The position numbers were made by a program, and so were the translations under genes. This document shows, in pieces, positions 1-48,254 of a stretch of DNA of 64,000 bases (position 1 is the stretch's first letter; each line of letters opens with the position of its first letter). The stretch is taken from the IMG/VR virus record IMGVR_UViG_3300020469_000010; one strand, given 5' to 3'. The DNA comes from a virus. Below the pieces are notes generated by a model, which was not told the origin of the DNA, did no database searches, and saw nothing but the letters and a program-made list of their open reading frames with translations.

Positions 1-32
1 ATAACAATTATGCTAATATGACAAGGGATCGT

Positions 33-118
33 GTGGCAGTTAAAGAACCGTCACAGAACCCATTGAAAACCGCCTTAGATGCCCTATAATACATTTGTAA
101 ACAAGGAACAACCTCCTC
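33..118 (+). promoter_or_regulatory. Early promoter element copy 1 (divergent): dyad + sigma70 promoter + RBS
   Basis: gtggcagt-taaaga-accgtcac (33-54); TTGAAA 63-68, TATAAT 85-90; AAGGA before ATG 119. Confidence 0.75.
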
Positions 119-571
119 ATGGCAAGAAGTTTCACCGATTATGTTGCCCAACAAGATGTTAGAAATAATCTGCAACTTAAAGTCCGTGAGTATTGCCTGA
201 TGTTGTGTGAGGCACTGGAGCAGGATTTTGTAAAAGATTCTCTCCGTCGTGCTAATTTTTTCCTGAAAACTGATCCTGAATATCGTGAAGATCGTATTAA
301 GCGTATTCAACAAGGTGAAGATCGTTACAAATACTATATTGAGAGTGGTAGAAAGTATCACAAAATTATCATGGAGACCGATGGTGGTTCCCGTAGTGTT
401 CATTGTTTTGTCAACATGAAGACTGGTGAGTTGCATAAAGCAGCATCATTCAAAGCACCAGTAAAAGAACCTCGTTTCGACCTGCGTATCATCAAAGAGC
501 GTGAGTGGGTATTTGAGAACTGTGATTGGTCTGGTGGTTATCTTTACAAAAACGCATATTACACTGGTTGA
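119..571 (+). CDS. Conserved hypothetical early phage protein
   Basis: 150 aa ORF after promoter and RBS; GRKYHKI...SVHCFV...GELHKAAS.KAP motif recalled from phage hypothetical proteins. Confidence 0.85.
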   Translation: MARSFTDYVAQQDVRNNLQLKVREYCLMLCEALEQDFVKDSLRRANFFLKTDPEYREDRIKRIQQGEDRYKYYIESGRKYHKIIMETDGGSRSVHCFVNMKTGELHKAASFKAPVKEPRFDLRIIKEREWVFENCDWSGGYLYKNAYYTG

Positions 572-574
572 GAT

Positions 575-724
575 ATGATTGTAAATCTCACAAAGAATGA
601 GGTAAAGCATCTTGTCTACCTTTTAGGTAGAGGAGATGCTGATTATCCTGAACTAAATGGCAATCTACTGAAAAAACTAGAACCATTAGTTGACATCTGC
701 ACATGTCAAGAAAAAAACAATTAA
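575..724 (+). CDS. Small hypothetical protein (49 aa, MIVNLTKNEV...)
   Basis: Hand-translated; fills the gap between neighbours; below ORF-track cutoff. Confidence 0.6.
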   Translation: MIVNLTKNEVKHLVYLLGRGDADYPELNGNLLKKLEPLVDICTCQEKNN

Positions 725-733
725 CTAAAAATC

Positions 734-958
734 ATGAAAACTCCAGACAAAATGAAAGAAGAGTATAAAAAACTCTTTTGTGAAGTAATGTGTGAACTAT
801 GTGAATATGAAGATGGTGTAGATGTTTTCCGTCATTGTTTAAATTATGCTATCGGAGATGTTGGTTCATGGCATATTAAAGAATTAGGTTATCTTAATTC
901 TATGCAGATGATTACAGATGAAGAATTTGATAAAAAAGAAACAAATAAAGAGGAATGA
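734..958 (+). CDS. Hypothetical protein
   Basis: 74 aa ORF ending 2 nt before the next repeat element. Confidence 0.75.
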   Translation: MKTPDKMKEEYKKLFCEVMCELCEYEDGVDVFRHCLNYAIGDVGSWHIKELGYLNSMQMITDEEFDKKETNKEE

Positions 959-18200: not shown

Positions 18201-21200
18201 ATTACATATGAATCTACAGATACACCAATTACTGGATTGACTAGTGCAGCATATTATTATGTAACAAAAATTGATGATGATTCATTCAAACTTTCAGAGT
18301 CTGATGTTGTTGATGGAGTTGATGGTTTACTTGAATATGGTGGTAAATTATTTTATGAGTCTGACGAATTTGTAAACCTATTTGCATTTGATGAAGGTTT
18401 AGACGAATCTGGAATTGGTGTCGGTGATCATATTTTCAGATATCCAGATATACAAGTAGCAATTCAGGAATCTGAAGATACTATTTCTATTCCACCTACA
18501 GTAATTCCAGTTGTCAGAGGATTTATTGATGATGTATTCTTAACTGATGCTGGTGTAGGTTATGGAGCTACAAACATATTTAATTACAAAAGATTACCAG
18601 TCATAACTGCTGAACCTGGAAAATTAGCATCAATAAAACCATATATCGTTGATGGTGAAATTAAACAAATTATTATTCAAAATGCTGGGCAAGGATATGT
18701 TTCTCAACCATATATTGGAATTGATAGTGAAGAGGGATTTGGTGCTGATTTAATTCCCATCATTAAAGATGGTAGATTAGACTCAGTTGTCGTTAAATCT
18801 GGAGGTTTTAATTATACCGATGACACTATACTTACAGTTAATCCTGCAGGTAAAGGAGCAAAATTTGAATCTGAAATTTTCTCATGGGTTGTAAATGAAG
18901 TTAGTAGATCTTTTGCAAGTAATCAAATCTACAGTGATGACGGATTCATCTATCAAGATTCTTTAGTTTCCGAATTAGATGCAGAAGATTATGGAATATT
19001 ACAATATACTGTAACATATATTCCTAGGAAATTTAGAGAAACTATTTACAATGAGTCTACTGTAGATGGAAGAAAAATTTTCAATCCAGATTTAATAAAA
19101 GATAGTTTAGGTAGAGAAACTGAATCGAAGAATCATTCTCCATTGATTGGTTGGGCATATGATGGAAATCCAATTTATGGACCATACGGATTTGCAAGTG
19201 CTGATGGTACTGGTGGTGTAAAACGAATGATTTCTGGATACAAAAAGAGATCTCTAGCAAACAGACCTTCACTACTAATATATCCTCTAGGATTCTTCTG
19301 TAATGACTATGAGTGGACCACTGATGGAGATCTGGATGAATCTAACGGAAGATTCTGCATAACACCAGATTATCCAAATGGTGTGTATGCTTACTTTGCT
19401 ACCATTGGAGAAAATTTGGTAGACTATGATAATTTTAAAGAACCCGTTTTCCCATATTTCATTGGTAATTCATTCAAATCTCCTCCGATTGAATTTAATT
19501 TCGAACCAGATATAAATCAGGAAAGTTTTACATCACCATCTAATATTTTAGAAGAAAAACTATCAGATAGTGATTTTCTTAGAAATGTCAGACCATATAA
19601 TTTATCTTCCTCAAATGGATCATATGAGTATTTGTTCCAACCAAGTCAATTATCACCATTACAATCAATAATTGATAATACAGCAGTTGGTAAACTAAAT
19701 GATCTAAACATACTATCTGGAGGAAAGGATTATAAAGTTGGAGATAGAATCGTCTTCAGTGCTAATGATAGTGAGAGAAGACCATTAGCTGAAGTTACTG
19801 GTATTGCAAATACTGAAGTAACAAATATTTCTGTTGCAACATCAGCAATTTCTAATGTTGAGTTTCTTCAAAATTATGGATCAAAAGATGCAGTCACTTA
19901 TATTGGGTTTACAACTAGTCCACATAACATGACTAGTGGTCTTGCAAAAATCTATGATAGTGTAAGGAATGTTGAATTTGTATCAGATATTAAAGTAAAA
20001 CCTAGTGAACTATCTTTAGGTATTGGAATTGGAACCACGGGACAGACCGGAATTGTTACATATATTTCAATATTTGGTAGTAAATTGTCTAAAATGTCTA
20101 ATTTTAGAGAAAATGACATTTACACAATTGAATCTGATGGTTATAGAGAAGAAATAAAAATTCTTAATATAGAGGAAGATCTTAATAGAATAAGAGTTGA
20201 AAGAAATGCAAATGGTACTATAGGAACTAGTTATTCTAAAGGACAAAGATTATTTGAAAATCCTAGGAAATTCTTAGTACCTGCAGTTGATGATGCCAAT
20301 TTAGAGTCCTCAGAAATAAATGAAGAATACTATTTCAACCCAATTGAATCTGTAGGGGTTGGAATTGGTACTACAGTTGCAATTGAAAATCCTGGTACTG
20401 GATCTACAAGCAGATTTATTGCTAGAAATAGAATATACATTGGTTCTCACGATATCCAAGTTAATGACGAAATTCGTTATGATTTTGACGAATCTCCAAT
20501 TTCTGTATCCACTGGATCTGATCAATTTACCCTAGAAAGAGATCGTGAATATTTTGCATTCCCATTTAATAATAATGTTATCGGTCTCTCCACAAATCGA
20601 ATTGGTGTAGGATCAACAGGATCTGCTGTTGGTTTTGGTACTACAACTGCAGCTGCACTTCTAACATTCACAGACTTTGGAAGTGGAGTTAATCATAGTC
20701 TAAGAACTAGAAAACCAGAAGTCCTTACTGGTGAAGTTATTCGTTATGAATCTACAATAACATCAAAAAATAATCATAATTTAAAAGTTACTGATAGAAT
20801 ATCTGTAGATTGTAGACCAACTACAGATAAAATTGTAGATATTGTTTACAATCAAACTCATAGAAAATTCTCTGCTGGAACATTAGCATTTGATGCAGTT
20901 GGTATCAACACAATTGCTAATACCATTACAATTCCTAATCATAATCTTAAAAATGAACAAGTAGTAATTTTCTCATCAAATGAAGTTGCACAAGAACTAG
21001 AATTTGATGCTTTGTATGTTGTTGTAGTTTTAGACTCAAATACAATACAATTAATTGACAAGGAAAGAGTTTTTACAAGATTACAAGATTTAGGTGATCT
21101 GAAAGCCCTTGCTGTTGACTTATTAGAACAAAAACCCGGAAAACTTCTTCCAATAAACCCACCATTATTGTTACAGAAAAATCAAACACTAATTTTTGAT

Positions 21201-24200
21201 GTTTCTAACGCTAGTTTGTCATATTCTAGAAATAATATACTATATCCAGCATTTGCTGTAGAATTTTATACTGATATAGAACTAAAAAATAAATTTGTAT
21301 CATCCAAACAACCAAATAAATTTAATGTTATTTCCACTGGAGTGATTGGAGTTGACGATAATGCCACTGTCAGACTAGTTTATGACGATGATCTACCAGA
21401 AACTCTATATTATAACTTAGTTCCACTGAAAAATAACCAAATTCCTGCTGATTTTTCATTAATAAAACTGGATAATGACATAATTACTGAAATATCAATT
21501 GAAGATAGTTCTTTCTCTGGAAATTATGATGTAAAATCAACCACAGATAAGACATTTTCTTATTTTCTACCAGATTATACTCACGATGAAAATTCATTTA
21601 CATCATCAAATGCAATTATTTCATATTTAAGTAGTTCTGATCAAGTTTCAGGACCAATTGGTAGAGTAAGGTATATTTCTGATGGAAATAATATAACACA
21701 AATTCCACAAATTGAGGAAATTGTTACTGAAAGTGGTGTTGGTGCTATTTTACAAGCAACATCTAAGGTTATTGGTAATATAAAAAATATTAATATAAGT
21801 GATATTGGATTTGATTTCCCAACAGACTTTACTTTAGCACCAAGAGCACATACACCAACATTAGTAAAAGTTGAAGAGTTGGTATCAATAGTATCAATTG
21901 GTGTTACCTTCCCAGGTAAAAACTATACATCTCTTCCAGATTTAAAAATTGTTGATGGGATTAGTGAAAAGGTTGTTGATGACATTGTATTGGATTATGT
22001 TTTTGACAACAGATTTAAAGTTCGTATTCTAAAGAATACTGGAAATATTAATAATGTTAAACCAAGTATTATACCATTTAATAATACTAATGGTTATAAA
22101 ATTAGAACATTAACTTATGATCCTTCAACAAAAGATGCAACAATAGTCTTAGACACCGTTGGTTTCAGTACTCTTTCTGCTTGGCCGTTCGCAGTAGGAG
22201 AAAAATTCCTATTAGAGGGTGTGAACACTCTAGATGATAGTCTAGTTGCTGGAACTGGTGATCTTGGATATAATAATGAGAATTATGAATTTAAACTGTA
22301 TGAGGTAAAAACTAGTGATCCAAATATAGGTGGTCAGGTTCCAGGATTTACATTCAATATGGAGGAATTTGTTGGTGATGGAGATCCAGGAATTTTTGAT
22401 GACGAATTCACTACTGCAAGAGTGGTTCCACAGCAATTCTTCCCCCAATTCCAAGTTGAAGTAGAGCAAAATGTTTTCTTCGATAATGAAGATATTACAA
22501 ATGGAAGTAATGTGGACAAATCACTTGGATTTGATTCAAATACTTCAATATTGAGAATTTCTACAAATAGACCAGAAGAATATAAAGTTGGTCAACTAAT
22601 AACTGGTAAATCTTCAAGATCTCAGGCAAATATAACAGAAATTGTTGGAGTAACCACCTTTACTTACAATATAAAACCACGTAGTAAAAATAATAAAAAA
22701 GGATTCCTTAAAAAAGGATTCTTGAATGAAGATTCACAAAGACTTCATGATAGTGATTATTATCAATACTTCTCATATTCACTAAAATCAAATGTTGGAA
22801 TATCCAGTTGGAATGATCCTGTAGAATCCATGGTTCATCCTGTTGGAATGAAGAAATTTAGTGATTTGCAAGTAGTTTCAGAACCAACAAACTCTGAAAT
22901 GATAGAAGATCAAAATGATGGTGCATTGACAGGGATATCTCACATAAATTCAATACTTGATTTGAATTGTTATACTGATATTGATCTAGTAACTGAAAAT
23001 AATGTAAATAATGTTTATTCCGATGAGATAAGATTTAACTCTCTTATCTTGCAGGACTTCTTTAAGTCCGTTGGTAACAGAGTTCTATTAGTTGATGATT
23101 TCAGTGATGAATTTAATAGTAATCCTAGAGCAACTTCTTTCTCAACAATTGATAGTTTCTCTTTAAATGCTTTTAGATTTAAAAAGTATTTCTTACTAAC
23201 TACGGATACAAAATTCCCAGGAGAAAGACAGGTAATTATTGTAAATATGCTCCATAACAACATTTATGGATTTGTGTCTCAATATGGTAGAGTTGAAACT
23301 GATGAGATTCATGGTTACTTTGATATTGGTGTTTTTGAAAATAATGGATTATTACTATTTTACCCACTAGAACCCAGATTTGATGATTATGCAGTAACTG
23401 GATTTAAATATGCAATTTCACCTGGCAGTGTTGGAATCAGTACACAATATATTGGTGACATTGCATCTGTAGGAGTTCAAACAGCATCTATCCCATCTGG
23501 AACTACTTCAGCATACAAAATTGTTGGAATTGAATCATCATATAGTTCTTCAAAAGTGATGGTAGTTTTGGAATCAACTGATTTACAATACTATCAGAGT
23601 GATGAAATCAATATAGTTCATGATGGAACAAATATTATACAAACAGAATTCTCCACATTAGCAACAGATACATTGGATGAGGATGTTTCTGATGGTATAG
23701 GAACATATCGATTTGGTTATAATGGTAATGAAATTGAAATGGATTTTGTTCCAAATTCTGGACTCACTACCGCATACAATGTCAATGCTACTGTAGTATC
23801 CATCTCAAATACTTCTAGAGTTGCAACTGGAACTAGTACATATCAAACAACACTTACTTCTGTTGGTCTAGGAACCACTAGTGCTGGAACTGCTACAACA
23901 TCAATTCAGGTGATGGAAATTGATTCTCAATATAGAGGATTTAATGTGTATGCAAGCATTGAAGATATGACTAATAACGATGTTCAATTCTCAGAATTGA
24001 CTATTGTACATGATAATACTGATGTTTCTCTATCTGAATTTGGTAGAGTTGTTACTGATGATAATCTTTTTGATACTGGAATAGGAACCTTTACTGCTTT
24101 TGTTGATCCTGTAAGTAAGAAAACACAAATTCATTTTGAGGCAATAGGTGGAATACCAAATAAACAGATTGAAGTTAGATTACTGGTTAATTCATTAAGT

Positions 24201-27200
24201 GCTGTTGATTTAGGAATTTCTACTGTTAGATTAGGATTCCAAGGTGGTGAGTTCTCTACGATGCATGGAGGATACACCGGTAGTCAAAATGATATTAAGA
24301 GAAGTTTTGAACTAAAACATAAAGGAGATTTGATCTTTGAAAGAACATTTAATTCTGAAGCACTAGGTACTGTTGTATCAGTAGAAAGTAATGTATTAAA
24401 TCTATCAAATCATTTCTTTGTCAGTGGTGAAGAAGTAACATACACATTCCCAGCTGGTGGTCAACCAATTGGAATAGCAACAACTACTCTTGTTGGAGTT
24501 GGAACTACAACGCACCTTCCACCCACATTATTTGTTATTAAGCAAGACTCTGGTAGTATCTCATTTACAGATACAGCAGAAAATGCACTTAGGTTTAATC
24601 CAAATATAACCATCAACATAACATCTGCTGGAATTGGAACTCAGCATCAAATTACTTCAACAAATAAAGATGCTAAGGGAGTATTTACTATTGACAATAT
24701 GATGCAGTCTCCTATTCAGAGATCTGATATTATTACTACTTTGGTTGAAGATATTTCTTTAGAACAAACTTTAATCAATACTGCGGGTATTACATCAATC
24801 TTTAGTGGAGATATCCTTAAGATTAATGATGAGTTTATGTTGGCAGAAACTGTTGGTGTTGGAACTCAAGAGAAACTGCGAGTAAGAAGACCTTGGCTAG
24901 GATCTGTATTGGGTGTTCATACTACTGGTGATACTATTATTAAGATGTATGGTGATTATACTATTTCAGGGTCTACAATTAACTTCACATCACCACCATT
25001 CGGAAAAGTACCAATTACAGTTGATGTAAACCAATTCGGTATTCCTTTTGTAGATCCAAACGATAGAGACTTTACTGGAATTACTACAAATTCATCTTTC
25101 CAGGGAAGAACCTTCATGAGGTCTGGTAGTATAGACACCAATGCAGAAACTTACAGCAGAAATTACATCTTTGATGATATTTCTACGAGATTTACTGGTA
25201 TTAGATCAGAGTTCCCATTAACTGTTGATGGTGCTAATATAACAGGAATATCTACAGATAATGCAATAATATTGGTAAATGACATTTTCCAACAATCATC
25301 AAGATCTGGTATCAAACCAGTAGTTGGAAACTATACTCTTGCTGAAAACAGTGGTGAAACTACTATTACATTTAATCCACAAACACTGGAACCAGGAGAA
25401 GACATAAACACAACTGATCTACCTATAGGTGGTGTAATCGTATCAGTCGGATCAACAAATGGTCTTGGATATCAACCATGTGTCCCTGCAGGAGGAACTG
25501 CAAATGTCTCTGGATTGGGTACTATCTCCTCTGTAAGTATCGGGAACAGTGGTTCTGGATATAGACCAGGAATTCAAACACATATCGGTGTAAAGGCAGT
25601 TACTTCATCCTCAGTGGATATAATTGGTTCTGCAACTGCATTGAATGGGCACATTACTGAAGTTTCAATATCTAATGATAAAGTCTTCTATGCTCCAAGA
25701 GATATATCAGATGTAATCTACAGCAATACAACTGGACTTACTACAGTTACAACTTCAACAGCACATGAATTGCTCATTGGACAAGAAGTTCTTCTTTCTG
25801 GTATTGCAATGACTTGTGATTACTCTGGTGCTGGTCCGGTCAATATCACTAATGTCATTTATGATAATATTAGTGGTATCATGACTGTTACAACTTCAGG
25901 AGCACATAACTTACAGACCACTGGTCAAAGAAGTGATGTTATTTTCACTGGTATTGCAATGACTTGTGATTTGGATGGTGGAGCATCAACTCACATCTAT
26001 CCAAGAACAACAGATCCATTCTATTGTGGATCTAGAGTAACTACTGTCAATAGTTCAACAGAGTTTGAAACTAATGTCGGTGTTTCCACCGTACCTACTT
26101 TCTATCAGTCTGGTGGTGTTGTACAACCTGTTATTATTGCTCCAAGAGTAAGTAATAATTCTGCAAGCAGAATTGATCCTGCTGCAGATGGAACTCGTAT
26201 TACAAGAATTATAAACAGTACTTCTTTTGAAGTTAATACAGGAATTTCTACAAGAGAACATTTCTATGCAAGATGCGGTGAAGTTAACACACCAATTGAA
26301 ATTGTAATTGATGGTCCGATAGGATACACAAATATTCCGTTAATTTATTCTGATAGTTCTGTTCAAGGAATAGGAACAAAAGCATCTATTGACATGTTTG
26401 TTAGTAGAGATACTTCTATTGCAGAATTTGATTTTAATAATGATGGTTTTGCATATGGTCAGGGTGAAAAGTTAACTATTGCAATAGGTGGAACTACTGG
26501 AATTCCTACTACAGGTTCTTCCTTTAAAGAGTTTGCTATTGATATTGAAAGAACTCACTCCGATGAGTTCTCTGCTTGGAGTGTGGGTCAATTCCAACAA
26601 CTTGATCCATTTGATAGTAAATTTAATGGAAAGAGAACTGTATTCCCAATTTCATTTAATGGTGATAGGATATCAATTAGAGCAGGTGCAGGAAGTAACA
26701 TTGATGTATCATCCACTATATTCATCTTTATTAATGATATTCTCCAGGTTCCTGGACAATCATATCAATTTAGAGGTGGTGGACTGGTAGTCTTTGATGA
26801 ACCAATTCCAAAAGATTATACATCTAGAATCCTCTTCTACAAAGGAACAAAAGATATTGATGTTGTTGAGGTTGATATTGATGAACCAGTAGAACCTGGT
26901 GATACATTAACAATCAATTCCGAAAATATCTCTCTGAAGGAAGATACTAGAACCGTTGAGGAAATATTAGCATCTGATATCGTCCTAACAAATCCATATC
27001 GTGGACGAGGAAGAACTAACGATGAAAGTTTAGAAAGACCAGTGATGCTTTGTAAGCAAACTGAAGATACTTTCATCTATGGATTTGAAGAAACTAAAGA
27101 TAGAGAATCACTAGAACCAAATATTACTCCCAAAACAAACATAATTCAAAGTGTTGGAATTGGAACAACAACAAACTTTGCTTGGGTTGAAAGTGTCAAG

Positions 27201-28193
27201 ACTTTCTTTGACAATTCTCTAGAAAATCAAACTACACAAAGACTTGGTGTAATTGAAATAATCTCTCAAGAGGTTACTGAACCTGGTTTTGCTTCTGCTA
27301 GAGTTTCTTCTGCTGGTATCATTACCGAATTTAGTATTACAAATCCTGGAGCAGGTTATACATCAGATCCACAAATTTCTATTGGTTCTCCAGGAACTGG
27401 AAATACCACAGCTATTGCATCATGCTCAGTCACTAGTGGTATTATTACAAGTATAACCGTAACAAATTCAGGAACTGGTTACACAAATACAAACCCACCA
27501 CAAGTTCTTATTGAACCACCAGTCGTAGAAAAAGAGTTGATTGAAAAAGTTACATACGAAGGTGACTTTGGATCAATAGTTTCTATATCCAATACTTCAG
27601 TTGGAGTTGGAACAACAGCACTTCTACTATCGTTGTATATTCCCTTTGATTCTTTCCTAAGAAATCCAGTTGTAAATAGTGGTTTTGCAACAGGTGGATG
27701 GAGTGGAATTCAAACTGGACATTACTTTACTTGCAGTAATTCAAATACTGTTGGAACCTATGTTACAGCACTCAACCATTATGGAGAAACTTTAAGTATA
27801 TCCACTTCAAGAATGAATGTCATTTTCCAGGCAGCAGATATTGAAAGAAAATATCAAGATATTGTTGGTATTGGATCAACTCAGGTTCTTGAGGTAACAG
27901 TTTATGTAGAAGATGAAATAGACTTGGGTGATGCTTTAGCATCTTTCGATAGTTCTTCACTTACTTTTGATGATGTACGCACCAATAGTTTTGATCAAAC
28001 AATATTTGATAAGACTAATTATTACGGTGATTTCTCTTGGGGCAAGGTAACTTGGGATCCTTTAAGAAGTAGAAGAAATGCAACTCCTTTCACTGCTTAC
28101 CATTTGTCAGGATACGCTGGAATATCTACATCACCTGTTGTTAAGAGAGTTCATCCTTTAAGAACTAAACTATATACAAAGTATCAAGATTGA
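15219..28193 (+). CDS. gp7: Giant baseplate wedge initiator gp7-like protein (4324 aa)
   Basis: QIPDFV...FYKAKGS..SF.ILF N-terminus; YYQYFSYSLKS...VHPVG motif; position between gp6 and gp8. Confidence 0.85.
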   Translation: MSNQTRIKISQVLEAQIPDFVNDEFPLFKEFLTQYFESLESDGGAYNLLQNIDKYIDLDTQLLTPESTESLENFFIGDDTLVVESTEGFPTSYGLLKIGDEIVTYKSKTETEFLDCVRGFSGVSDYDSSLVFSKTGPQNHYRGVVTNLSSVLLKEFFRKLKSQIAPGFEDIDLDQSVDKRLFYKQTRDFYKAKGSDKSFEILFGALYGTKVEVIRPSDYVFEPSASGTRRTLDIVLSTFDDSIDYTDIILNRTLLQKNRDSTSNADTVSAFASITHVERFFKGNKFYYLVSLDNDTSRDISSSGTVFGKFQTTQTTRLTESHTQNLDGTFNDYLFVDSTVAFEENDILDVYLDTGILEIDYNGKSINEFYSVNDANFTIPRGTLVSTKKYAYVELEEDNVYFRVTNVISDITFPEGGNFKEGDVIKYDSLGLQNKSTKLDNWRFNTAPKYNIESISVLSEAEQKYQIKFAETFNLQLNDIFFLITSSEETYNVSVSSREGETSYVITSETAIPDFNATGRTSLSLKTYPKKFFIERKLNKAKFRFFPEASSFLSDVQNTYKSRTLQDNCFVMSSSLPNYSNEILPTNLKKVIFTINVADDAVNDTVNVGQDASPTQSEITHPFYTGDAIVYLEPLEDEETGEVNTNRLNIDNGKYYVTVLNSKNIKLSRSLSDLYNKIYVNITGNVTDNTFFYVDYFDIQKILDEDNPFKLSSKRCVKLLTEPIDDTFREETVPGKTGMLNNGVEILNYKSKTNLSYGPITKINVSNSGNGDYDVINPPLLSIFDGNNADGVNNGGIGATGHFNLFGSVRDILVVSGGFNYETKPLIRVYGGNGTLCNVEPIMETYRHNVRIESEDGEMVGISSNLLTADEDHFFKTGEPVIYRSIGDEPIVGLEDLQTYFISVVDDRSFRLHSSGEDAVAFENPVNITDFGVGYSIVESVNDRQKLARITIIKSSEDFSNRKVLFNAEKSPNSVDFYENTINIKNHGFQSGELITYESTDTPITGLTSAAYYYVTKIDDDSFKLSESDVVDGVDGLLEYGGKLFYESDEFVNLFAFDEGLDESGIGVGDHIFRYPDIQVAIQESEDTISIPPTVIPVVRGFIDDVFLTDAGVGYGATNIFNYKRLPVITAEPGKLASIKPYIVDGEIKQIIIQNAGQGYVSQPYIGIDSEEGFGADLIPIIKDGRLDSVVVKSGGFNYTDDTILTVNPAGKGAKFESEIFSWVVNEVSRSFASNQIYSDDGFIYQDSLVSELDAEDYGILQYTVTYIPRKFRETIYNESTVDGRKIFNPDLIKDSLGRETESKNHSPLIGWAYDGNPIYGPYGFASADGTGGVKRMISGYKKRSLANRPSLLIYPLGFFCNDYEWTTDGDLDESNGRFCITPDYPNGVYAYFATIGENLVDYDNFKEPVFPYFIGNSFKSPPIEFNFEPDINQESFTSPSNILEEKLSDSDFLRNVRPYNLSSSNGSYEYLFQPSQLSPLQSIIDNTAVGKLNDLNILSGGKDYKVGDRIVFSANDSERRPLAEVTGIANTEVTNISVATSAISNVEFLQNYGSKDAVTYIGFTTSPHNMTSGLAKIYDSVRNVEFVSDIKVKPSELSLGIGIGTTGQTGIVTYISIFGSKLSKMSNFRENDIYTIESDGYREEIKILNIEEDLNRIRVERNANGTIGTSYSKGQRLFENPRKFLVPAVDDANLESSEINEEYYFNPIESVGVGIGTTVAIENPGTGSTSRFIARNRIYIGSHDIQVNDEIRYDFDESPISVSTGSDQFTLERDREYFAFPFNNNVIGLSTNRIGVGSTGSAVGFGTTTAAALLTFTDFGSGVNHSLRTRKPEVLTGEVIRYESTITSKNNHNLKVTDRISVDCRPTTDKIVDIVYNQTHRKFSAGTLAFDAVGINTIANTITIPNHNLKNEQVVIFSSNEVAQELEFDALYVVVVLDSNTIQLIDKERVFTRLQDLGDLKALAVDLLEQKPGKLLPINPPLLLQKNQTLIFDVSNASLSYSRNNILYPAFAVEFYTDIELKNKFVSSKQPNKFNVISTGVIGVDDNATVRLVYDDDLPETLYYNLVPLKNNQIPADFSLIKLDNDIITEISIEDSSFSGNYDVKSTTDKTFSYFLPDYTHDENSFTSSNAIISYLSSSDQVSGPIGRVRYISDGNNITQIPQIEEIVTESGVGAILQATSKVIGNIKNINISDIGFDFPTDFTLAPRAHTPTLVKVEELVSIVSIGVTFPGKNYTSLPDLKIVDGISEKVVDDIVLDYVFDNRFKVRILKNTGNINNVKPSIIPFNNTNGYKIRTLTYDPSTKDATIVLDTVGFSTLSAWPFAVGEKFLLEGVNTLDDSLVAGTGDLGYNNENYEFKLYEVKTSDPNIGGQVPGFTFNMEEFVGDGDPGIFDDEFTTARVVPQQFFPQFQVEVEQNVFFDNEDITNGSNVDKSLGFDSNTSILRISTNRPEEYKVGQLITGKSSRSQANITEIVGVTTFTYNIKPRSKNNKKGFLKKGFLNEDSQRLHDSDYYQYFSYSLKSNVGISSWNDPVESMVHPVGMKKFSDLQVVSEPTNSEMIEDQNDGALTGISHINSILDLNCYTDIDLVTENNVNNVYSDEIRFNSLILQDFFKSVGNRVLLVDDFSDEFNSNPRATSFSTIDSFSLNAFRFKKYFLLTTDTKFPGERQVIIVNMLHNNIYGFVSQYGRVETDEIHGYFDIGVFENNGLLLFYPLEPRFDDYAVTGFKYAISPGSVGISTQYIGDIASVGVQTASIPSGTTSAYKIVGIESSYSSSKVMVVLESTDLQYYQSDEINIVHDGTNIIQTEFSTLATDTLDEDVSDGIGTYRFGYNGNEIEMDFVPNSGLTTAYNVNATVVSISNTSRVATGTSTYQTTLTSVGLGTTSAGTATTSIQVMEIDSQYRGFNVYASIEDMTNNDVQFSELTIVHDNTDVSLSEFGRVVTDDNLFDTGIGTFTAFVDPVSKKTQIHFEAIGGIPNKQIEVRLLVNSLSAVDLGISTVRLGFQGGEFSTMHGGYTGSQNDIKRSFELKHKGDLIFERTFNSEALGTVVSVESNVLNLSNHFFVSGEEVTYTFPAGGQPIGIATTTLVGVGTTTHLPPTLFVIKQDSGSISFTDTAENALRFNPNITINITSAGIGTQHQITSTNKDAKGVFTIDNMMQSPIQRSDIITTLVEDISLEQTLINTAGITSIFSGDILKINDEFMLAETVGVGTQEKLRVRRPWLGSVLGVHTTGDTIIKMYGDYTISGSTINFTSPPFGKVPITVDVNQFGIPFVDPNDRDFTGITTNSSFQGRTFMRSGSIDTNAETYSRNYIFDDISTRFTGIRSEFPLTVDGANITGISTDNAIILVNDIFQQSSRSGIKPVVGNYTLAENSGETTITFNPQTLEPGEDINTTDLPIGGVIVSVGSTNGLGYQPCVPAGGTANVSGLGTISSVSIGNSGSGYRPGIQTHIGVKAVTSSSVDIIGSATALNGHITEVSISNDKVFYAPRDISDVIYSNTTGLTTVTTSTAHELLIGQEVLLSGIAMTCDYSGAGPVNITNVIYDNISGIMTVTTSGAHNLQTTGQRSDVIFTGIAMTCDLDGGASTHIYPRTTDPFYCGSRVTTVNSSTEFETNVGVSTVPTFYQSGGVVQPVIIAPRVSNNSASRIDPAADGTRITRIINSTSFEVNTGISTREHFYARCGEVNTPIEIVIDGPIGYTNIPLIYSDSSVQGIGTKASIDMFVSRDTSIAEFDFNNDGFAYGQGEKLTIAIGGTTGIPTTGSSFKEFAIDIERTHSDEFSAWSVGQFQQLDPFDSKFNGKRTVFPISFNGDRISIRAGAGSNIDVSSTIFIFINDILQVPGQSYQFRGGGLVVFDEPIPKDYTSRILFYKGTKDIDVVEVDIDEPVEPGDTLTINSENISLKEDTRTVEEILASDIVLTNPYRGRGRTNDESLERPVMLCKQTEDTFIYGFEETKDRESLEPNITPKTNIIQSVGIGTTTNFAWVESVKTFFDNSLENQTTQRLGVIEIISQEVTEPGFASARVSSAGIITEFSITNPGAGYTSDPQISIGSPGTGNTTAIASCSVTSGIITSITVTNSGTGYTNTNPPQVLIEPPVVEKELIEKVTYEGDFGSIVSISNTSVGVGTTALLLSLYIPFDSFLRNPVVNSGFATGGWSGIQTGHYFTCSNSNTVGTYVTALNHYGETLSISTSRMNVIFQAADIERKYQDIVGIGSTQVLEVTVYVEDEIDLGDALASFDSSSLTFDDVRTNSFDQTIFDKTNYYGDFSWGKVTWDPLRSRRNATPFTAYHLSGYAGISTSPVVKRVHPLRTKLYTKYQD

Positions 28194-43490: not shown

Positions 43491-46400
43491 ATGGGTATTT
43501 CTACCATTCGTCTTAAAAGATCTTTTTCTCAAGGATCTCAACCAACAATTGAGCAACTGACTGATGGTGAATTAGCCATTAATCATTTTGATGGTACTGT
43601 CTTTGTAAAGCAAGACACTCAAGGTGTTGGTATTAATACTAGAGTCGTACAAGTTGGTGCAGGTAAAAGTATTGGACGTACTTTCTTTGTTATTCAACAA
43701 GGAGATGATAATAATTTAGGATTAACGCAAGCAGATGGATTGGCATCCATTAAGAGAGCATCTCAACTTGCACAACCAGGTGATACTATTAAAGTTTCTG
43801 CTGGAATATATGTTGAAGATAATCCAATTATTCTTAGAGATAATGTATCTGTAGAAGGATTTGAATTAAGAAACTGCTATGTTGCACCAAATAATCCAGA
43901 TCAAGATTTATTTCATATCAATAATGCATGTCACTTAACTGACTTGGCATTTATTGGTAAAGGTGCAGATATTGGTGGTGGTTCTAAAGGTGTTCCTGCT
44001 GGTGGATCTGAACCAGGATTCCTCGGAGGACCAGTAGACTCTGGAGTTGCTGTTGTAGCATTTGTTCCACTTAAAGGTGTTTCGGGAGACAGATATTTTG
44101 ATGCCGCAAGACTGATTCGACAGAATGCGGATTATATTGCTGGTGAAGCAGTTGGATTTTTAACTAGTGGTTTTAGTGGTATTGCTGGTTCTCATAGAGC
44201 ACAAGATGCTGCAAGACTTATTGATCTAAATGCAGAATTTATTGCAGCAGAGGCAGTAGGATTTATCACTAGTGTAAATTATGTTGGTGGTGCATTCTCA
44301 ATGTCATTCGGTACAGCAACAGACTGTAAGGATGACGTTCATGATGTTTTAGAGGTAGTAGCACATGATTTAAGAGCAGGATATAGGGCAGGAGTTCAGG
44401 CAAATAAGAAAACTGTAGGTGCTGCACAGTCATATTTTGTTGGTGGAGCACTATCTCACATTCTAGGTGCTGGAGTTTCTGAAGCAACGATTGCTGCAAT
44501 GGATCGTGCTGCTGGTATTGCAACCTTTGTTATCAATAACAAACCATATGGATTTGAAACTACTGGTGCTGGTGTTGCTGTAAGTGCATTTGATTATACT
44601 GCAAATACTGGTGTTGCTACAGTTACAACCACAGTCGGTCATGGATTGAGCACTACAGACCATGTTGAATTTGCTGGATTAGCATTTACATGTGCAACAG
44701 AACATGCTGGTGTTACTACAACAATTTTCCCAGATGGTTTTGCTCCTTCTGGTCATATTTTCAAAATTGATGCTAGTGGAACATTTAATGAGAGTCAGTT
44801 TGTTATTAATGCTGGTATCTCTACTATTCAAACATTCTATACAGCAAGTTCTGGAACAGCAAAAACTGTCACACAATACAGTCCATTTGAGCAACAATTT
44901 GATACTGGAGCAGCTGCAGGAACACCTCTTCGTGGTGAAAATGTAGTTGGTGGTGTAAAGGAAACAGTTACAAATGCAACTTATGACCCTGCTACTGGTT
45001 TAACAGTATTAACTATAGGTTCACATAAACATACCGTTGGTAATAGTATCAGAATTCCTCTAGAAGCATTAGTCTTTACTTGTTCTCAAGATGGTGGTGT
45101 TTCTGAGCATAAGTATCCTCGTGCTACAGACCCTGCTAATGGAAATGATCTTCAAATACTTTCAACAACTGGTACAACTATAACAGTTAATACTGGTGCT
45201 TCTGGTCCATCCGATCAATATGCACACACATTTGTTCGTGCAGAGAAAAGGATTATTGTTGGTGGTGGACTTTGCCTCAATGTTATCAAAGATATTAAGA
45301 ATCTAGTCGGCATTATAACCAGTGCTATTGGTGCAGGCAATACAGGTAGTCTTCCTGGAATTACAACTGGTGTAAGACTAGAGCAGAATAAGTGTCGTAG
45401 GGATGTTACTAAAATTCTTAAGGCTGTTTGTTATGATATCACCCGTGGTGGTAACACCAAAGTCATTGGTGCTGCAAAGTCATATTTCGATGATCAAGGA
45501 AATAGACTTTCCGCACTTTTGGTAGATCCTGACGAATTTGAACAATCTGTTATTGCAGTAGAATATACTAAAGATTTGTGCAGAAGAATTGTTAATAATG
45601 TAAGGGATGGTTCTTATACAATTGGAACAGCCTTCCATGTTTCTGATGCATTGTATTCTCCAACATCAGGTATCATGACTGTTACCACTCAAGTCGGTAA
45701 TGGATTAACTGCTGGAAATACTATTAAACTTTCTGGATTAGGATTTAGTTGTGGTGCTCATAATAATGAAATTTCTATAACCGATTTCCAGTATGACAGA
45801 CAATCTGGTTTTAGTACTATCTTTGTAAGTTCAGATCACGGATTAAGTTCTGGTGATGAATTTGAACTTCGTAATATTAAAATGAATTGTGGTGATTCTG
45901 GTACTGGTCCAGTTGTTAATGTAACAGCAGCAGCATATGATGAAGCACTAGGTGATATTGTTATAACAACTTCTGCAGCACATGGAGCACACATAGGAAA
46001 AACAATACAAGTTAAGAATCTTGAATTTAGTTGTGCTGCAGAACATGCTGGTGTTACTACAACAATTTTCCCAGATGGAACTGGAACAAGTAACTTTATT
46101 CAGGGTTATGGTAAAGATGTATTTTTAGTTACTGCAACACCATCAACAACTCAATTTAAAATTAATGTAGGTATATCCACAATTGCTCATAGTTATGTTT
46201 CTGGTGGTACTGCACAAGCAGGTATAACTACATCAATTTATCCAGATGGTGTACAAGGTGGTGGTGATGCAATCTTTGATGCATATGTTGGTACTGGTGG
46301 AACAGTTATCTTTACAAATGTAGGTATCTCTACAATTGAACATACCTATGATTCTGGAGGTCAAGTAAGGATAGGTGTTACTACATCTGTTTTCCCAGAT

Positions 46401-48254
46401 GGAACTTTTGGTGATTTCTTTGACATTCAGAGTCGTCTTTCTGACAGTCAATTTACAATTAATGTTGGTATGTCAACTATTGCTCATGTATATAAGAGTG
46501 GAGGAATAGTTCAAAAGACCAGATCCTTTAGACCAGACATAGGTCAAATCAGAGATATAAGTATTCAAGCAGATCCAGATACTGGAAATAATAATACTGT
46601 TGGTAACTGTAAGAATGTTATTTCTGCTGTAAATACTGCAGTTGGAATTTGCACTGCAATCATTGAAAATGGATTCCAAGCACTTCAAGAACCAGTATAC
46701 TTAGAAGTATCAACCGCAGCATATACTGCTAATAATGGAATACTTACATTAAATACAACAACTAATCATAATCTCTCTAACGGTGATAAAATTAAATTAA
46801 GAAATAATTCTATTATCTTTACTTGCGATTCTGATGGTGGAAATACTCAAATTGGATATCCAGATAAAACCAGTCCAATTTTTGATAGGTTTATTCCAGT
46901 TACAGTTACTGGTGCTACCTCACTGACTGTTAATACAGGAGACGCTGGTACTGCATCGACACTAACTCATAGTTTTGTTTCTATTGCTGGAACACAAACA
47001 ATTAATTATGGTGGTGCTGGAATTTCTACTAGATTCCCAGGTAATAATGGTGCTGGATCTGATTTTGAAAATGATCCATCATTCTCTCCTGGAACTGACG
47101 GACCTGTTCTAAAAGGTCCATATATCAGAAACTGTACTAACTTTATCGAAAACAGCATCGGTATGAGAATCAATGGATTTGATTCTGATCCTGGTGATAA
47201 AGATGAATTGGGTGTACAGGGTTCAATGAGTGTTGACTCATATACTCAATATAATCAAGGTGGTATTGGTGTATCAATTACAAACGGTGCATATGCACAG
47301 TTGGTGTCTATCTTCACCATCTGCTGTAATGAAGCAATTGTAACCTTAAGTGGTGGTCAGTGTGACCTTACAAACTCCAACTCCTCATTCGGTGAGTTTG
47401 GTCTAGTTTCTAAAGGTGTTGGTGATGAGAACTCCCGTTCCAACTATAGACAAACTGCTGAAGTTGTCAAAGCAGGTGATCCTGGTAGAACAAATGCTCA
47501 AGGTCCATATGATGTTGGTTCCAGAAGAGTTACTTTATCTGGTGTCGGTACACAAAGACCTTATGATGGTCAGACAGTATTCTTCGATGAACTCTTCTTC
47601 TCTGTAGAAAAAGTTAAAATTACCAACGAAGGTTCTGGATATGAAGGTGCTGTACCAGGAGTTACTTTCTCCGATCCAACTGGACCTCAAGGAATTACTG
47701 CACAAGGAATTCCAATTGTTGAAGATGGTAAAGTTGTCAGTTTCTTAGTTGCCAACTCTGGAACTCAATATCAAAAAGATTCTTTCCCATCAATTACTAT
47801 TACACCACCTGAAGGTGATGGTGTACAGGCAACTGCAGAAGTTGAAAGGATGCAACCACTATTCTTTAAGGTTGCTTCTGCAACACTCCCACATAGTGGA
47901 ATCTCAACCGTCACAATGAGTCAAGGACTAAATAATTCATTGAGTGGTGGTGAAACTGCGTTCATGACTCGTCAGAGTCTGCAAATCACATCTTCTCACT
48001 CTTTTGAATATGTTGGTGCGGGTAATACTATCCTAACAGCAAGACCTTCAGTTGGAGGTATCATTATTCAGGATAATGAAGTTGTTCAGGAAGATGGTGG
48101 TCTTGTAGTTTACACAAGCACGGACCAAGCAGGTAACTTCAGAATTGGTGATGGTATTCAAATTGACCAGGCAACTGGAACGATCTCAGGTCGTGTTTAT
48201 GTCAAATCATTGTTCAACAGCGTTACACCATTTATTCTAGCACTCGGAGGTTAA
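43491..48254 (+). CDS. Tail fibre/spike-like protein (1587 aa): beta-helix scaffold with inserted helical (phycobiliprotein-like) and His/Cys beta modules
   Basis: IRLKRS...GELAIN fibre N-terminus; GDTIKVSAGIY.E and PYIRNCT...YAQLVSIF beta-helix motifs; internal repeats; late promoter. Confidence 0.75.
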   Translation: MGISTIRLKRSFSQGSQPTIEQLTDGELAINHFDGTVFVKQDTQGVGINTRVVQVGAGKSIGRTFFVIQQGDDNNLGLTQADGLASIKRASQLAQPGDTIKVSAGIYVEDNPIILRDNVSVEGFELRNCYVAPNNPDQDLFHINNACHLTDLAFIGKGADIGGGSKGVPAGGSEPGFLGGPVDSGVAVVAFVPLKGVSGDRYFDAARLIRQNADYIAGEAVGFLTSGFSGIAGSHRAQDAARLIDLNAEFIAAEAVGFITSVNYVGGAFSMSFGTATDCKDDVHDVLEVVAHDLRAGYRAGVQANKKTVGAAQSYFVGGALSHILGAGVSEATIAAMDRAAGIATFVINNKPYGFETTGAGVAVSAFDYTANTGVATVTTTVGHGLSTTDHVEFAGLAFTCATEHAGVTTTIFPDGFAPSGHIFKIDASGTFNESQFVINAGISTIQTFYTASSGTAKTVTQYSPFEQQFDTGAAAGTPLRGENVVGGVKETVTNATYDPATGLTVLTIGSHKHTVGNSIRIPLEALVFTCSQDGGVSEHKYPRATDPANGNDLQILSTTGTTITVNTGASGPSDQYAHTFVRAEKRIIVGGGLCLNVIKDIKNLVGIITSAIGAGNTGSLPGITTGVRLEQNKCRRDVTKILKAVCYDITRGGNTKVIGAAKSYFDDQGNRLSALLVDPDEFEQSVIAVEYTKDLCRRIVNNVRDGSYTIGTAFHVSDALYSPTSGIMTVTTQVGNGLTAGNTIKLSGLGFSCGAHNNEISITDFQYDRQSGFSTIFVSSDHGLSSGDEFELRNIKMNCGDSGTGPVVNVTAAAYDEALGDIVITTSAAHGAHIGKTIQVKNLEFSCAAEHAGVTTTIFPDGTGTSNFIQGYGKDVFLVTATPSTTQFKINVGISTIAHSYVSGGTAQAGITTSIYPDGVQGGGDAIFDAYVGTGGTVIFTNVGISTIEHTYDSGGQVRIGVTTSVFPDGTFGDFFDIQSRLSDSQFTINVGMSTIAHVYKSGGIVQKTRSFRPDIGQIRDISIQADPDTGNNNTVGNCKNVISAVNTAVGICTAIIENGFQALQEPVYLEVSTAAYTANNGILTLNTTTNHNLSNGDKIKLRNNSIIFTCDSDGGNTQIGYPDKTSPIFDRFIPVTVTGATSLTVNTGDAGTASTLTHSFVSIAGTQTINYGGAGISTRFPGNNGAGSDFENDPSFSPGTDGPVLKGPYIRNCTNFIENSIGMRINGFDSDPGDKDELGVQGSMSVDSYTQYNQGGIGVSITNGAYAQLVSIFTICCNEAIVTLSGGQCDLTNSNSSFGEFGLVSKGVGDENSRSNYRQTAEVVKAGDPGRTNAQGPYDVGSRRVTLSGVGTQRPYDGQTVFFDELFFSVEKVKITNEGSGYEGAVPGVTFSDPTGPQGITAQGIPIVEDGKVVSFLVANSGTQYQKDSFPSITITPPEGDGVQATAEVERMQPLFFKVASATLPHSGISTVTMSQGLNNSLSGGETAFMTRQSLQITSSHSFEYVGAGNTILTARPSVGGIIIQDNEVVQEDGGLVVYTSTDQAGNFRIGDGIQIDQATGTISGRVYVKSLFNSVTPFILALGG
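44698..46078 (+). repeat. Perfect 40-bp direct repeat (44698-44737 / 46039-46078)
   Basis: cagaacatgctggtgttactacaacaattttcccagatgg occurs twice. Confidence 0.9.

What the first reader, a model, noticed from the sequence alone, without database searches (positions are those of the whole stretch)
43491..47420. 'Russian-doll' nested domain architecture of the fibre protein
Seen: a ~95-aa beta module has an N-half (Y...G..TVTT...HGL..G..V...GL.F(T/S)C) and a C-half (TT.IFPDG...F.IN.GIST..H.Y..GG). It occurs intact at about 44575-44870, 44965-45245 and 46700-46990. At 45633-46520 it occurs as three N-halves in a row (Cys codons at 45750, 45888, 46032) followed by three C-halves, i.e. N1-N2-N3-C3-C2-C1. 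The helical domains are nested the same way (A1-A2-E2-H2-E1-H1), and the whole block interrupts a beta-helix. Inference: repeated insertion at one hinge makes a chain that runs out and back as a telescoping stalk, a way to lengthen a receptor-binding arm that differs from tandem duplication.
Basis: partly seen in the sequence, partly recalled or inferred. Interest (0 to 1): 0.7.

Follow-up and report, generated by a model that had tools for sequence, protein, structure and literature searches.

The report
Domains nested inside domains, phage spike
A virion spike or fibre protein of a marine cyanophage is built by inserting small beta-barrel domains (and helical domains) into one another like Russian dolls. 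Close relatives differ by adding or losing whole inner dolls, which makes it a rare, very deep case of recursive domain insertion.

Summary
The 1587-aa ORF (43491..48254, +) has six N-halves and six C-halves of a ~97-aa module, ordered NC NC NNNCCC NC (own HMMs, E 1e-17 to 1e-23).

An AlphaFold2 model of residues 705-1020 pairs them nested. Single-barrel PDB domains align to model ranges 100..207 (N3+C3), 52..259 (N2...C2) and 7..310 (N1...C1).

Homologues carry a central NNCC, NNNCCC or NNNNCCCC. The half-strings behave like balanced brackets. Simple relatives show the unsplit parts:
- a ~745-aa form is beta-helix start + contiguous helical domain (A-E-H-X) + beta-helix rest;
- a ~843-aa form adds one barrel between H and X.

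A model of the 843-aa form supports a tailspike-like beta-helix interrupted by a phycobiliprotein-like helical domain that itself hosts the barrel.

I refine it to A1[A2 E2 H2 (NC NC) X1] E1 H1 (NNNCCC) X2.

The "telescoping stalk" shape and the receptor-arm role remain inference, because model coordinates could not be read.

Recursive self-insertion is known in cyanobacterial RNA polymerase Si3. This would be a new instance in a phage virion protein. Relatives reach string depths of 8-10.

The same stretch was noted earlier in an overlapping window of this genome.

The parts
43491..48254 (+). Whole gene, 1587 aa, virion spike/fibre-like protein
   Evidence: ORF list and translation. 79% nt identity to S-SCSM1 gp026, which the record annotates as a virion protein / long tail fiber / baseplate wedge.
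43491..44084 (+). N-terminal segment and first coils of the right-handed beta-helix (aa 1-198)
   Evidence: Aligns to residues 5-163 of the ~745/843-aa relatives. In the P0150 model, beta-helix PDB hits start at model residue ~60.
44085..44189 (+). A1, first segment of the outer helical domain (aa 199-233)
   Evidence: z 16 to A2. The A count equals the E count in the commonest homologue strings.
44190..44555 (+). A2-E2-H2 of the inner helical domain (aa 234-355)
   Evidence: The contiguous A-E-H-X unit is seen in the ~745-aa relatives.
44574..44870 (+). M1, intact barrel module (N 362-401 + C 402-460)
   Evidence: HMM hits; alignment.
44964..45254 (+). M2, intact barrel module of the second C-half subtype (aa 492-588)
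   Evidence: Absent from many homologues.
45255..45371 (+). X1, closing helix of the inner helical domain (aa 589-627)
   Evidence: z about 5 to X2; string grammar.
45372..45632 (+). E1-H1 of the outer helical domain (aa 628-714)
   Evidence: E1 to E2 z 11-14; grammar.
45633..45752 (+). N1, N-half of the outermost nested barrel (aa 715-754)
   Evidence: HMM E 1.9e-20. Paired with C1 in the model: single-barrel hits span model 7..310.
45771..45890 (+). N2 (aa 761-800)
   Evidence: HMM E 2.5e-21. Paired with C2: single-barrel hits span model 52..259.
45915..46034 (+). N3, N-half of the innermost barrel (aa 809-848)
   Evidence: HMM E 4e-20. Contiguous with C3: hits span model 100..207.
46035..46220 (+). 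C3 (aa 849-910)
   Evidence: The 54-nt hinge sequence is 93% identical to the hinge of M1.
46221..46370 (+). C2 (aa 911-960)
46371..46517 (+). C1 (aa 961-1009)
46578..46688 (+). X2, closing helix of the outer helical domain (aa 1030-1066)
46701..46991 (+). M4, intact barrel module (aa 1071-1167)
46998..48254 (+). Rest of the beta-helix and C-terminal beta domains (aa 1170-1587)
   Evidence: About 55% identical to the C-part of the ~745-aa relatives. Beta-helix PDB hits run to model ~815-833 of P0150.

Best explanation
The gene encodes a cyanomyovirus virion protein whose scaffold is a tailspike-like right-handed beta-helix. After the first few coils the chain leaves the beta-helix and builds a roughly 1000-residue excursion by recursive domain insertion.

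Two insertion-tolerant domain types are used:
1. A four-segment helical domain (A-E-H-X) with a phycobiliprotein-like fold. It accepts another helical domain between A and E, and barrels between H and X.
2. A ~97-aa six-stranded beta-barrel (E1-FCCH / ferredoxin-reductase-like). It accepts another copy of itself at a mid-barrel hinge, right after the conserved 'F-T/S-C' that ends the N-half.

In this protein the layout is: beta-helix [ A1 [ A2 E2 H2 (M1 M2) X1 ] E1 H1 ( N1 ( N2 ( N3 C3 ) C2 ) C1 ) X2 M4 ] beta-helix. The chain runs out through N1, N2 and N3 and comes back through C3, C2 and C1. The innermost barrel is the only contiguous one and is the topological tip.

Shown here: the repeat order, the nested pairing in the model, the variable depth among homologues, and the unsplit parental forms.

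Inferred: that new levels arise when an N+C unit is gained at the hinge, that the nest projects as an arm, and that changing depth tunes reach or the number of binding modules during host recognition.
For: - Repeat order NC NC NNNCCC NC, with strong statistics.
- AF2 model of aa 705-1020 (pLDDT 75). Single ~80-100-aa barrels align with 72-88 residues at rmsd 2.2-3.5 A and Z 5-8 to three range classes: 100..207, 52..259 and 7..310. These begin and end at the N3/C3, N2/C2 and N1/C1 boundaries. Examples are E1 FCCH 2v31/4p22/9mc4, FNR-type FAD barrels and the phi92 endosialidase barrel.
- Homologues have central NNCC, NNNCCC or NNNNCCCC. The outer N1, N2, C2 and C1 are orthologous, and the length difference is a central block.
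- Bracket behaviour. 71 of 121 proteins are perfect balanced-bracket strings, with 75 unmatched halves against 403 in shuffles. The independent representative set gives 171 against 461.
- In eight depth-4 proteins the N-half and C-half similarity matrices correlate at r 0.65-0.96 under nested pairing and at -0.15 to -0.47 under sequential pairing.
- Unsplit forms exist: Npart-AEHX-Cpart (about 745 aa, 76 proteins) and Npart-AEH[NC]X-Cpart (about 843 aa, 9 proteins).
- In the P0150 model, beta-helix hits span 60..~815-833 with about 215-250 residues aligned (cyanophage Pam1 tailspike 7eea, Z 17.9). Phycobiliprotein hits span 175..436 across the barrel (ApcE domain 4xxi, Z 13.8, rmsd 1.9 A over 117 residues).
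- Depth changes at least 38 times on a tree of 206 complete proteins. Depths 2, 3 and 4 are interleaved among the nearest relatives.
- The S-SCSM1 homologue is marked 'virion protein' in its record. That phage's paper reports a mass-spectrometry virion proteome of 45 proteins (PMC9602691).
Against: - Pairing is read from the first and last aligned residues of structural hits, not from a contact map.
- The model is of moderate confidence (pLDDT 75, pTM 0.51) and is a monomer. Fibres and spikes are usually trimers, so inter-chain pairing is not excluded.
- Z 5-8 is an ordinary level for small barrels.
- Depth-3 similarity matrices do not discriminate between pairings.
- One homologue, P0009, is unbalanced (2 N, 4 C, with a chimeric N1/N3 half). 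Balance is therefore not absolute, or that single-contig sequence is an assembly collapse.
- The beta-helix interruption and the helical fold were modelled on an 843-aa relative, not on the window protein.
- There is no functional evidence for receptor binding.
Confidence: 0.85

Rival explanations
1. Two independent tandem arrays. The N-type and C-type units are separate small beta units that each fold alone. NNN and CCC are then ordinary tandem repeats that merely lie side by side.
For: Runs of one half-type are what tandem duplication would produce. The 54-nt and 45-nt DNA repeats among C-heads and C-tails show local repeat homology. P0009 has 2 N and 4 C.
Against: N and C counts are equal in nearly all complete proteins, and the strings close like brackets, even with branches such as NNCNCC or a 62-symbol perfect string. 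Single-barrel folds align across N2...C2 and N1...C1 in the model. Intact modules show that N and C together make one barrel (100..207 range).
Confidence: 0.05
2. Pairing is real but not nested within one chain. The halves pair sequentially (N1 with the first C), or between the chains of a trimer as a domain swap. The monomer model would then be misleading.
For: Only a monomer was modelled, and pTM is 0.51. The recursively inserted HABAS domains of RNA polymerase Si3 are reported to exchange secondary-structure elements in some cases (PMC11515920). Spikes and fibres are commonly trimers (general knowledge).
Against: The N3|C3 junction is the same as in the intact module M1, down to 93% DNA identity over 54 nt. 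The linkers are short: 6-8 residues between N-halves and 0-3 between C-halves, which fits nested closure. The model ranges fit nested pairing. Sequential pairing gives negative matrix correlations in depth-4 proteins.
Confidence: 0.08
3. The nest is real but is not a length-setting stalk. It would be a compact or flexible cluster of surface decoration or adhesin barrels, where copy number matters for avidity or stability rather than reach.
For: Similar barrels occur as side domains of phage tail proteins and of the phi92 endosialidase. Intact barrels M1, M2 and M4 also occur singly. Inter-domain confidence is low (pTM 0.51).
Against: Two short connections tie each inner barrel to its host hinge, which limits freedom. 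The analogous nested Si3 is an elongated 150 x 50 A body (PMC10895346). The innermost N-half is the most variable among close depth-3 relatives: 0.63 identity against 0.79-0.86 for the outer N-halves. None of this is decisive.
Confidence: 0.4

Closest known systems
Si3 insertion of cyanobacterial RNA polymerase beta' (recursively inserted SBHM / HABAS domains)
   Same: A small beta domain is inserted repeatedly into copies of itself. This produces discontinuous domains, a chain that runs out and back, and (for Si3) an elongated arm anchored at one site of a host domain. The number of copies differs between lineages (PMC11515920, PMC10895346). An ECOD-wide survey cites it as a six-level nest (PMC13114784).
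   Different: Different fold (FCCH / FNR-like barrel rather than the hybrid motif), different host protein (a phage virion beta-helix) and a different biological role. Two domain families are nested together here. Depth varies among very close relatives (2, 3 or 4 at C-part tree distances up to 0.22). String depth reaches 8-10 in relatives.
E1 ubiquitin-activating enzyme FCCH domain (PF16190) and ferredoxin-reductase-type FAD-binding barrels
   Same: The barrel fold matches at Z 7-8, with 75-83 residues aligned at rmsd 2.3-2.6 A and 13-19% identity. Foldseek probability to Uba1/Uba6 is about 1. FCCH is itself an inserted domain. The hits to diflavin reductases cover chain ranges of about 210-255 residues with only about 75-80 aligned, so those barrels also look split.
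   Different: The Pfam score is below the gathering cut-off (14.9 bits against 29.5 for the window protein, 26.3 for P0045). There is no sign of the enzymes' functions. Self-insertion is not known for these families as far as I found.
Phage tailspikes with a right-handed parallel beta-helix (e.g. cyanophage Pam1 tailspike, CBA120 TSPs)
   Same: The scaffold of the family matches these at Z 15-18 with about 235 residues aligned. The gene lies in the virion-gene block, and its homologue is marked a virion protein.
   Different: Here the beta-helix is interrupted by an excursion of about 170 to over 1000 residues, made of nested helical and barrel domains. No enzymatic site was examined.
Phycobiliproteins / ApcE bilin-binding domain
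   Same: The helical A-E-H-X domain superposes at rmsd 1.9-2.2 A over 117-125 residues, Z 13-15. The E segment carries a Cys-Arg/Asp-Asp motif.
   Different: No significant Pfam PF00502 match in these proteins. The setting is a phage structural protein, and bilin binding is untested. Z values in this range can occur for unrelated helical bundles.

Membership tests
Recursive (nested) self-insertion domain architecture, as in RNA polymerase Si3 | Host domain is discontinuous: its N and C segments are separated by a complete inserted domain | tested here: met
   Single-barrel PDB folds align to model ranges 52..259 and 7..310 with only 72-88 residues aligned. The helical domain spans 175..436 around the barrel at 297-387.
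Recursive (nested) self-insertion domain architecture, as in RNA polymerase Si3 | The inserted domain belongs to the same family as its host | tested here: met
   All N-halves and all C-halves match one HMM each, E 1e-17 to 1e-23.
Recursive (nested) self-insertion domain architecture, as in RNA polymerase Si3 | More than two levels of nesting | tested here: met
   Three barrel levels sit inside a helical domain inside a beta-helix in the window protein. Relatives have 4 levels and string depths of 8-10 (strings only, not modelled).
Recursive (nested) self-insertion domain architecture, as in RNA polymerase Si3 | Homology to the SBHM / HABAS hybrid motif | tested here: inconclusive
   No RNA polymerase chain appears among the 50 best structural rows. 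Absence from that list does not exclude it.
E1_FCCH (PF16190) | Pfam score at or above the gathering cut-off | tested here: not met
   14.9 bits against 29.5 for P0001; 26.3 bits for P0045.
E1_FCCH (PF16190) | Same beta-barrel fold | tested here: met
   2v31 Z 7.3, 4p22 Z 8.0, 9mc4 Z 8.1, with 75-78 residues aligned and 17-19% identity. Foldseek probability 0.99-1.0. Other barrel families tie on Z.
Right-handed parallel beta-helix tailspike / pectate-lyase-like | Beta-helix fold formed by the N-part and the C-part together | tested here: met
   Tested on the 843-aa relative P0150 (55-59% identical in the C-part). 7eea Z 17.9, 5olq Z 17.4, ranges 52-63..813-820. Not modelled for the window protein itself.
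Phycobiliprotein fold (PF00502) | Globin-like phycobiliprotein fold | tested here: met
   4xxi_A Z 13.8, rmsd 1.9 A, 117 aligned; 7eyd Z 13.3; 5aqd Z 15.1; 8or7 Z 13.7. This is borderline by the tool's own caution for helical folds.
Phycobiliprotein fold (PF00502) | Pfam sequence match and covalent bilin binding | tested here: not met
   No PF00502 hit at E <= 1 in 45 short relatives or at E <= 0.1 in P0001. Bilin binding cannot be tested with these tools.
Phage tail fibre / spike (virion component) | Presence in purified virions | not testable with these tools
   The S-SCSM1 record marks the homologue gp026 as a virion protein. That phage's paper reports a mass-spectrometry virion proteome of 45 proteins (PMC9602691).

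The most novel reading that the evidence does not exclude
Marine cyanophages use a recursive 'grammar' of two insertion-tolerant domains to grow an out-and-back arm from a tailspike. Arm length, or the number of binding modules, would be reset in single steps by gaining or losing the contiguous tip unit at a conserved hinge. Relatives with 8-10 nested levels would then be the deepest domain nests known, beyond the six levels reported for RNA polymerase. Depth would be a fast-evolving host-range trait.
Probability: 0.35. Interest if true: 0.85.

Novelty: new variant of a known kind. Interest (0 to 1): 0.7.

Why it matters
Domain insertion is usually one level deep. A 2026 survey of 2.7 million domains singled out a six-level nest in cyanobacterial RNA polymerase as the extreme case (PMC13114784). 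This phage protein family appears to use the same principle more freely:
- the same barrel is inserted into itself 2-4 times in close relatives, and apparently 8-10 times in others;
- a second, phycobiliprotein-like domain is nested as well;
- the whole excursion is anchored inside a tailspike beta-helix.

It offers three things. First, a natural series (0, 1, 2, 3 and 4 levels) for studying how discontinuous domains fold. Second, a defined hinge that tolerates insertion, which is useful for protein engineering. Third, a candidate mechanism by which cyanophages vary the reach or valency of a host-recognition protein.

Tried and rejected
- Self-BLAST of the whole protein returned only the identity hit. 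I replaced it with segment alignments against shuffles and with HMMs.
- Sequence search of the PDB gave nothing.
- Pfam gave only a sub-threshold E1_FCCH hit. PF22842 is listed in the precomputed Pfam column for several homologues. My own scans of P0003 (E <= 0.01) and of the 45 short relatives (E <= 1) did not list it.
- Model coordinates are not exposed to scripts. I could not compute a contact map, the rod length or the inter-barrel geometry, so pairing was inferred from aligned ranges instead.
- The similarity-matrix congruence test cannot discriminate for depth-3 arrays, which have only three pairs.
- Per-half conservation does not separate nested from sequential pairing.
- Full-text searches for nested domain insertion in cyanophage fibres found no relevant paper.
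- Cluster look-ups gave no informative names.
- I considered and rejected the idea that the central length differences are two unrelated indels. The outer halves are orthologous, and the missing block equals one N plus one C. The aligner's exact gap placement inside similar repeats is, however, arbitrary.
Full report
**What is there**

The finding lies in one ORF, 43491..48254 (+), 1587 aa. The window is a low-GC cyanomyovirus-like virion-gene block that includes ORFs of 4324 and 2714 aa. The nearest phage record is Synechococcus phage S-SCSM1, at 79% nt identity. Its homologue gp026 lies between the small and large terminase genes. It is annotated as a virion protein and variously as 'long tail fiber' or 'baseplate wedge subunit'. 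That phage's paper reports a mass-spectrometry virion proteome of 45 proteins (PMC9602691).

**The observation**

Segment alignments against shuffles give z 5-15 for most N-half pairs; M1n-M2n is the lowest at 2.3-2.9. The main C-half type gives z 8-22. M2c and M4c form a second C-half subtype. HMMs built from the six copies of each half recover exactly NC NC NNNCCC NC, with domain E-values of 1e-17 to 1e-23.

Across about 600 copies the consensus of the N-half is x-Y-x4-G-x2-T-...-F-x-C, with Y 98%, G 100% and C 95%. The C-half is ...F-P-D-G...N-x-G-x-S-T-x2-H-x-Y..., with P 88%, G 98% and H 90%.

**Is the pairing nested?**

I folded aa 705-1020 with 30 homologues as the alignment (A1). The model has pLDDT 75 and pTM 0.51; the strands score 84-91 and the loops are low. 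Coordinates are not readable in scripts, so I used the aligned ranges of an all-against-PDB structural search.

Single barrels of about 80-100 residues align with 72-88 residues at rmsd 2.2-3.5 A and Z 5-8. They include E1 FCCH, ferredoxin-reductase-type FAD barrels, riboflavin synthase barrels, the phi92 endosialidase barrel, N4 and Sf11 tail proteins and the Sf6 I-domain. Their matches fall into three range classes:
- 100..207, where N3 and C3 lie (contiguous);
- 52..259, which starts at N2 and ends at C2;
- 7..310, which starts at N1 and ends at C1.

A compact barrel of about 80 residues can span 207 or 300 model residues only if the two outer segments pack together and the middle is looped out. 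So the model is nested.

Caveats: only range ends are reported, Z is ordinary for small barrels, and the model is a monomer.

**Independent sequence evidence**

- Homologues of 1371-1685 aa carry a central NNCC, NNNCCC or NNNNCCCC. In the alignment the outer N1, N2, C2 and C1 are orthologous throughout, and the length difference is a central block of one N plus one C.
- Read as brackets, 71 of 121 homologues are perfectly balanced strings. Unmatched halves number 75 against 403 in shuffles.
- An exhaustive profile search of 1.84 billion representatives found only 765 proteins with the module. In its 143 new top hits, unmatched halves number 171 against 461 in shuffles, and many of those hits are contig fragments.
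- Branched forms occur, such as NNCNCC. P0266 (4057 aa) is a perfect 62-symbol string of depth 8. P0042 opens with eight consecutive N-halves and closes exactly to zero at aa 1737. P0291 and P0285 reach string depths of 10 and 9.
- In eight depth-4 proteins the N-half and C-half similarity matrices agree under nested pairing (r 0.65-0.96) and not under sequential pairing (r -0.15 to -0.47). Depth-3 arrays are uninformative.
- One exception was found. P0009 has 2 N and 4 C with a chimeric N1/N3 half, on a single contig. It is either a rare recombinant or an assembly collapse.

**The helical domains and the beta-helix**

A1 resembles A2, and E1 resembles E2. H1 and H2 are only weakly alike. There is a fourth segment, X, present twice, and H2 is also X-like.

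Short relatives settle the unit:
- 76 proteins of about 745 aa read Npart - A E H X - Cpart.
- 9 proteins of about 843 aa read Npart - A E H [N C] X - Cpart.
- Longer proteins with three A segments also have three E segments: AAAEX NC XEH NC XEH NNCC X.

So the helical domain has two insertion sites, and the window protein reads A1[A2 E2 H2 (M1 M2) X1] E1 H1 (N1 N2 N3 C3 C2 C1) X2, followed by M4.

I then folded the 843-aa P0150 (pLDDT 75, pTM 0.71). Right-handed beta-helix proteins match at Z 15-18 with 215-250 residues aligned, over ranges that start near residue 60 and end near 815-833. The best is the cyanophage Pam1 tailspike (7eea, Z 17.9); pectate lyases and other tailspikes follow. Phycobiliprotein folds match across 175..436, with the barrel at 297-387 looped out: ApcE bilin-binding domain 4xxi (Z 13.8, rmsd 1.9 A, 117 residues), 7eyd, phycoerythrin 5aqd and allophycocyanin 8or7.

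This supports the claim that the block interrupts a beta-helix. It was tested on a relative, not on the window protein.

**Evolutionary behaviour**

On a tree of the conserved C-part of 206 complete proteins, barrel depth is 0 in 81, 1 in 31, 2 in 64, 3 in 20 and 4 in 10. Depth changes at least 38 times, against about 103 for shuffled labels. Among the window protein's nearest relatives (tree distance up to 0.22), depths 2, 3 and 4 are interleaved. So depth is labile, or it is moved by recombination.

The 54-nt hinge of M1 and that of N3|C3 are 93% identical in DNA, although the two modules are only 44% identical in protein. This points to gene conversion or a recombination substrate at the hinge.

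Among close depth-3 relatives the innermost N-half is the most variable: 0.63 identity against 0.79-0.86 for the outer N-halves.

**What is not shown**

- The geometry (rod or cluster), the oligomeric state, the position on the virion and any receptor binding are all untested.
- Whether a level is gained in one event (a unit inserted at the hinge) or in two matched half-duplications cannot be told from these data.

**Comparison with what is known**

Recursive self-insertion is documented for the HABAS/SBHM domains of the cyanobacterial RNA polymerase Si3 insertion. Si3 forms a 150 x 50 A body, and a 2026 ECOD-wide survey cites it as a six-level nest (PMC11515920, PMC10895346, PMC13114784).

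The present case shares the principle. It differs in fold, in host protein and in biological setting. It also combines two nested domain families, shows depth variation among close relatives, and may reach greater depth. I found no paper describing it for phage fibres or spikes.

I therefore class it as a new variant of a known kind.

**Earlier notes in this scan**

The same stretch was noted before in an overlapping window of this genome. Other readers flagged the helical domains as phycobiliprotein-like. My structural search partly supports that.

Noticed in passing
window 44085-45632 and 46578-46688 (helical segments A, E, H, X): The helical domain has a phycobiliprotein-like fold in the model of the relative P0150 (ApcE domain 4xxi Z 13.8, rmsd 1.9 A over 117 residues). 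Its E segment carries a Cys-Arg/Asp-Asp motif reminiscent of the bilin-attachment region. There is no Pfam PF00502 hit.
   Followed up: partly
window 44684-44737 and 46025-46078: The 54-nt hinge sequences of module M1 and of N3|C3 are 93% identical in DNA, although the modules are only 44% identical in protein. This may reflect gene conversion or a recombination substrate for module gain and loss.
   Followed up: no
window 25704-26318 (aa 3496-3700 of the 4324-aa ORF 15219..28193): The giant neighbouring virion ORF also contains a two-level nest (NNCC) of the same barrel module.
   Followed up: no
P0042, P0266, P0291, P0285 (metagenomic relatives): The half-module strings imply barrel nests 8-10 levels deep and tree-like. 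P0266 has 31 N and 31 C halves in a perfectly balanced string. These were not modelled.
   Followed up: partly
P0009 (metagenomic homologue, single contig): Unbalanced array of 2 N and 4 C, with a chimeric N1-head/N3-tail half. It looks like unequal recombination among N-halves or an assembly collapse.
   Followed up: partly
P0057, P0063, P0097 and similar homologues: Strings such as NNCNC-EXEX-CC suggest that helical domains can also sit inside barrel hinges, so the two domain types may be mutually recursive. Some halves go undetected there.
   Followed up: no
model of aa 705-1020, range 52..259: Diflavin reductases (CYPOR 3qft, nNOS 1tll, SiR-FP 1ddg) match with chain ranges of about 210-255 residues but only about 75-80 aligned. 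Their FAD barrel therefore also looks split by an insert, possibly at a comparable hinge.
   Followed up: no
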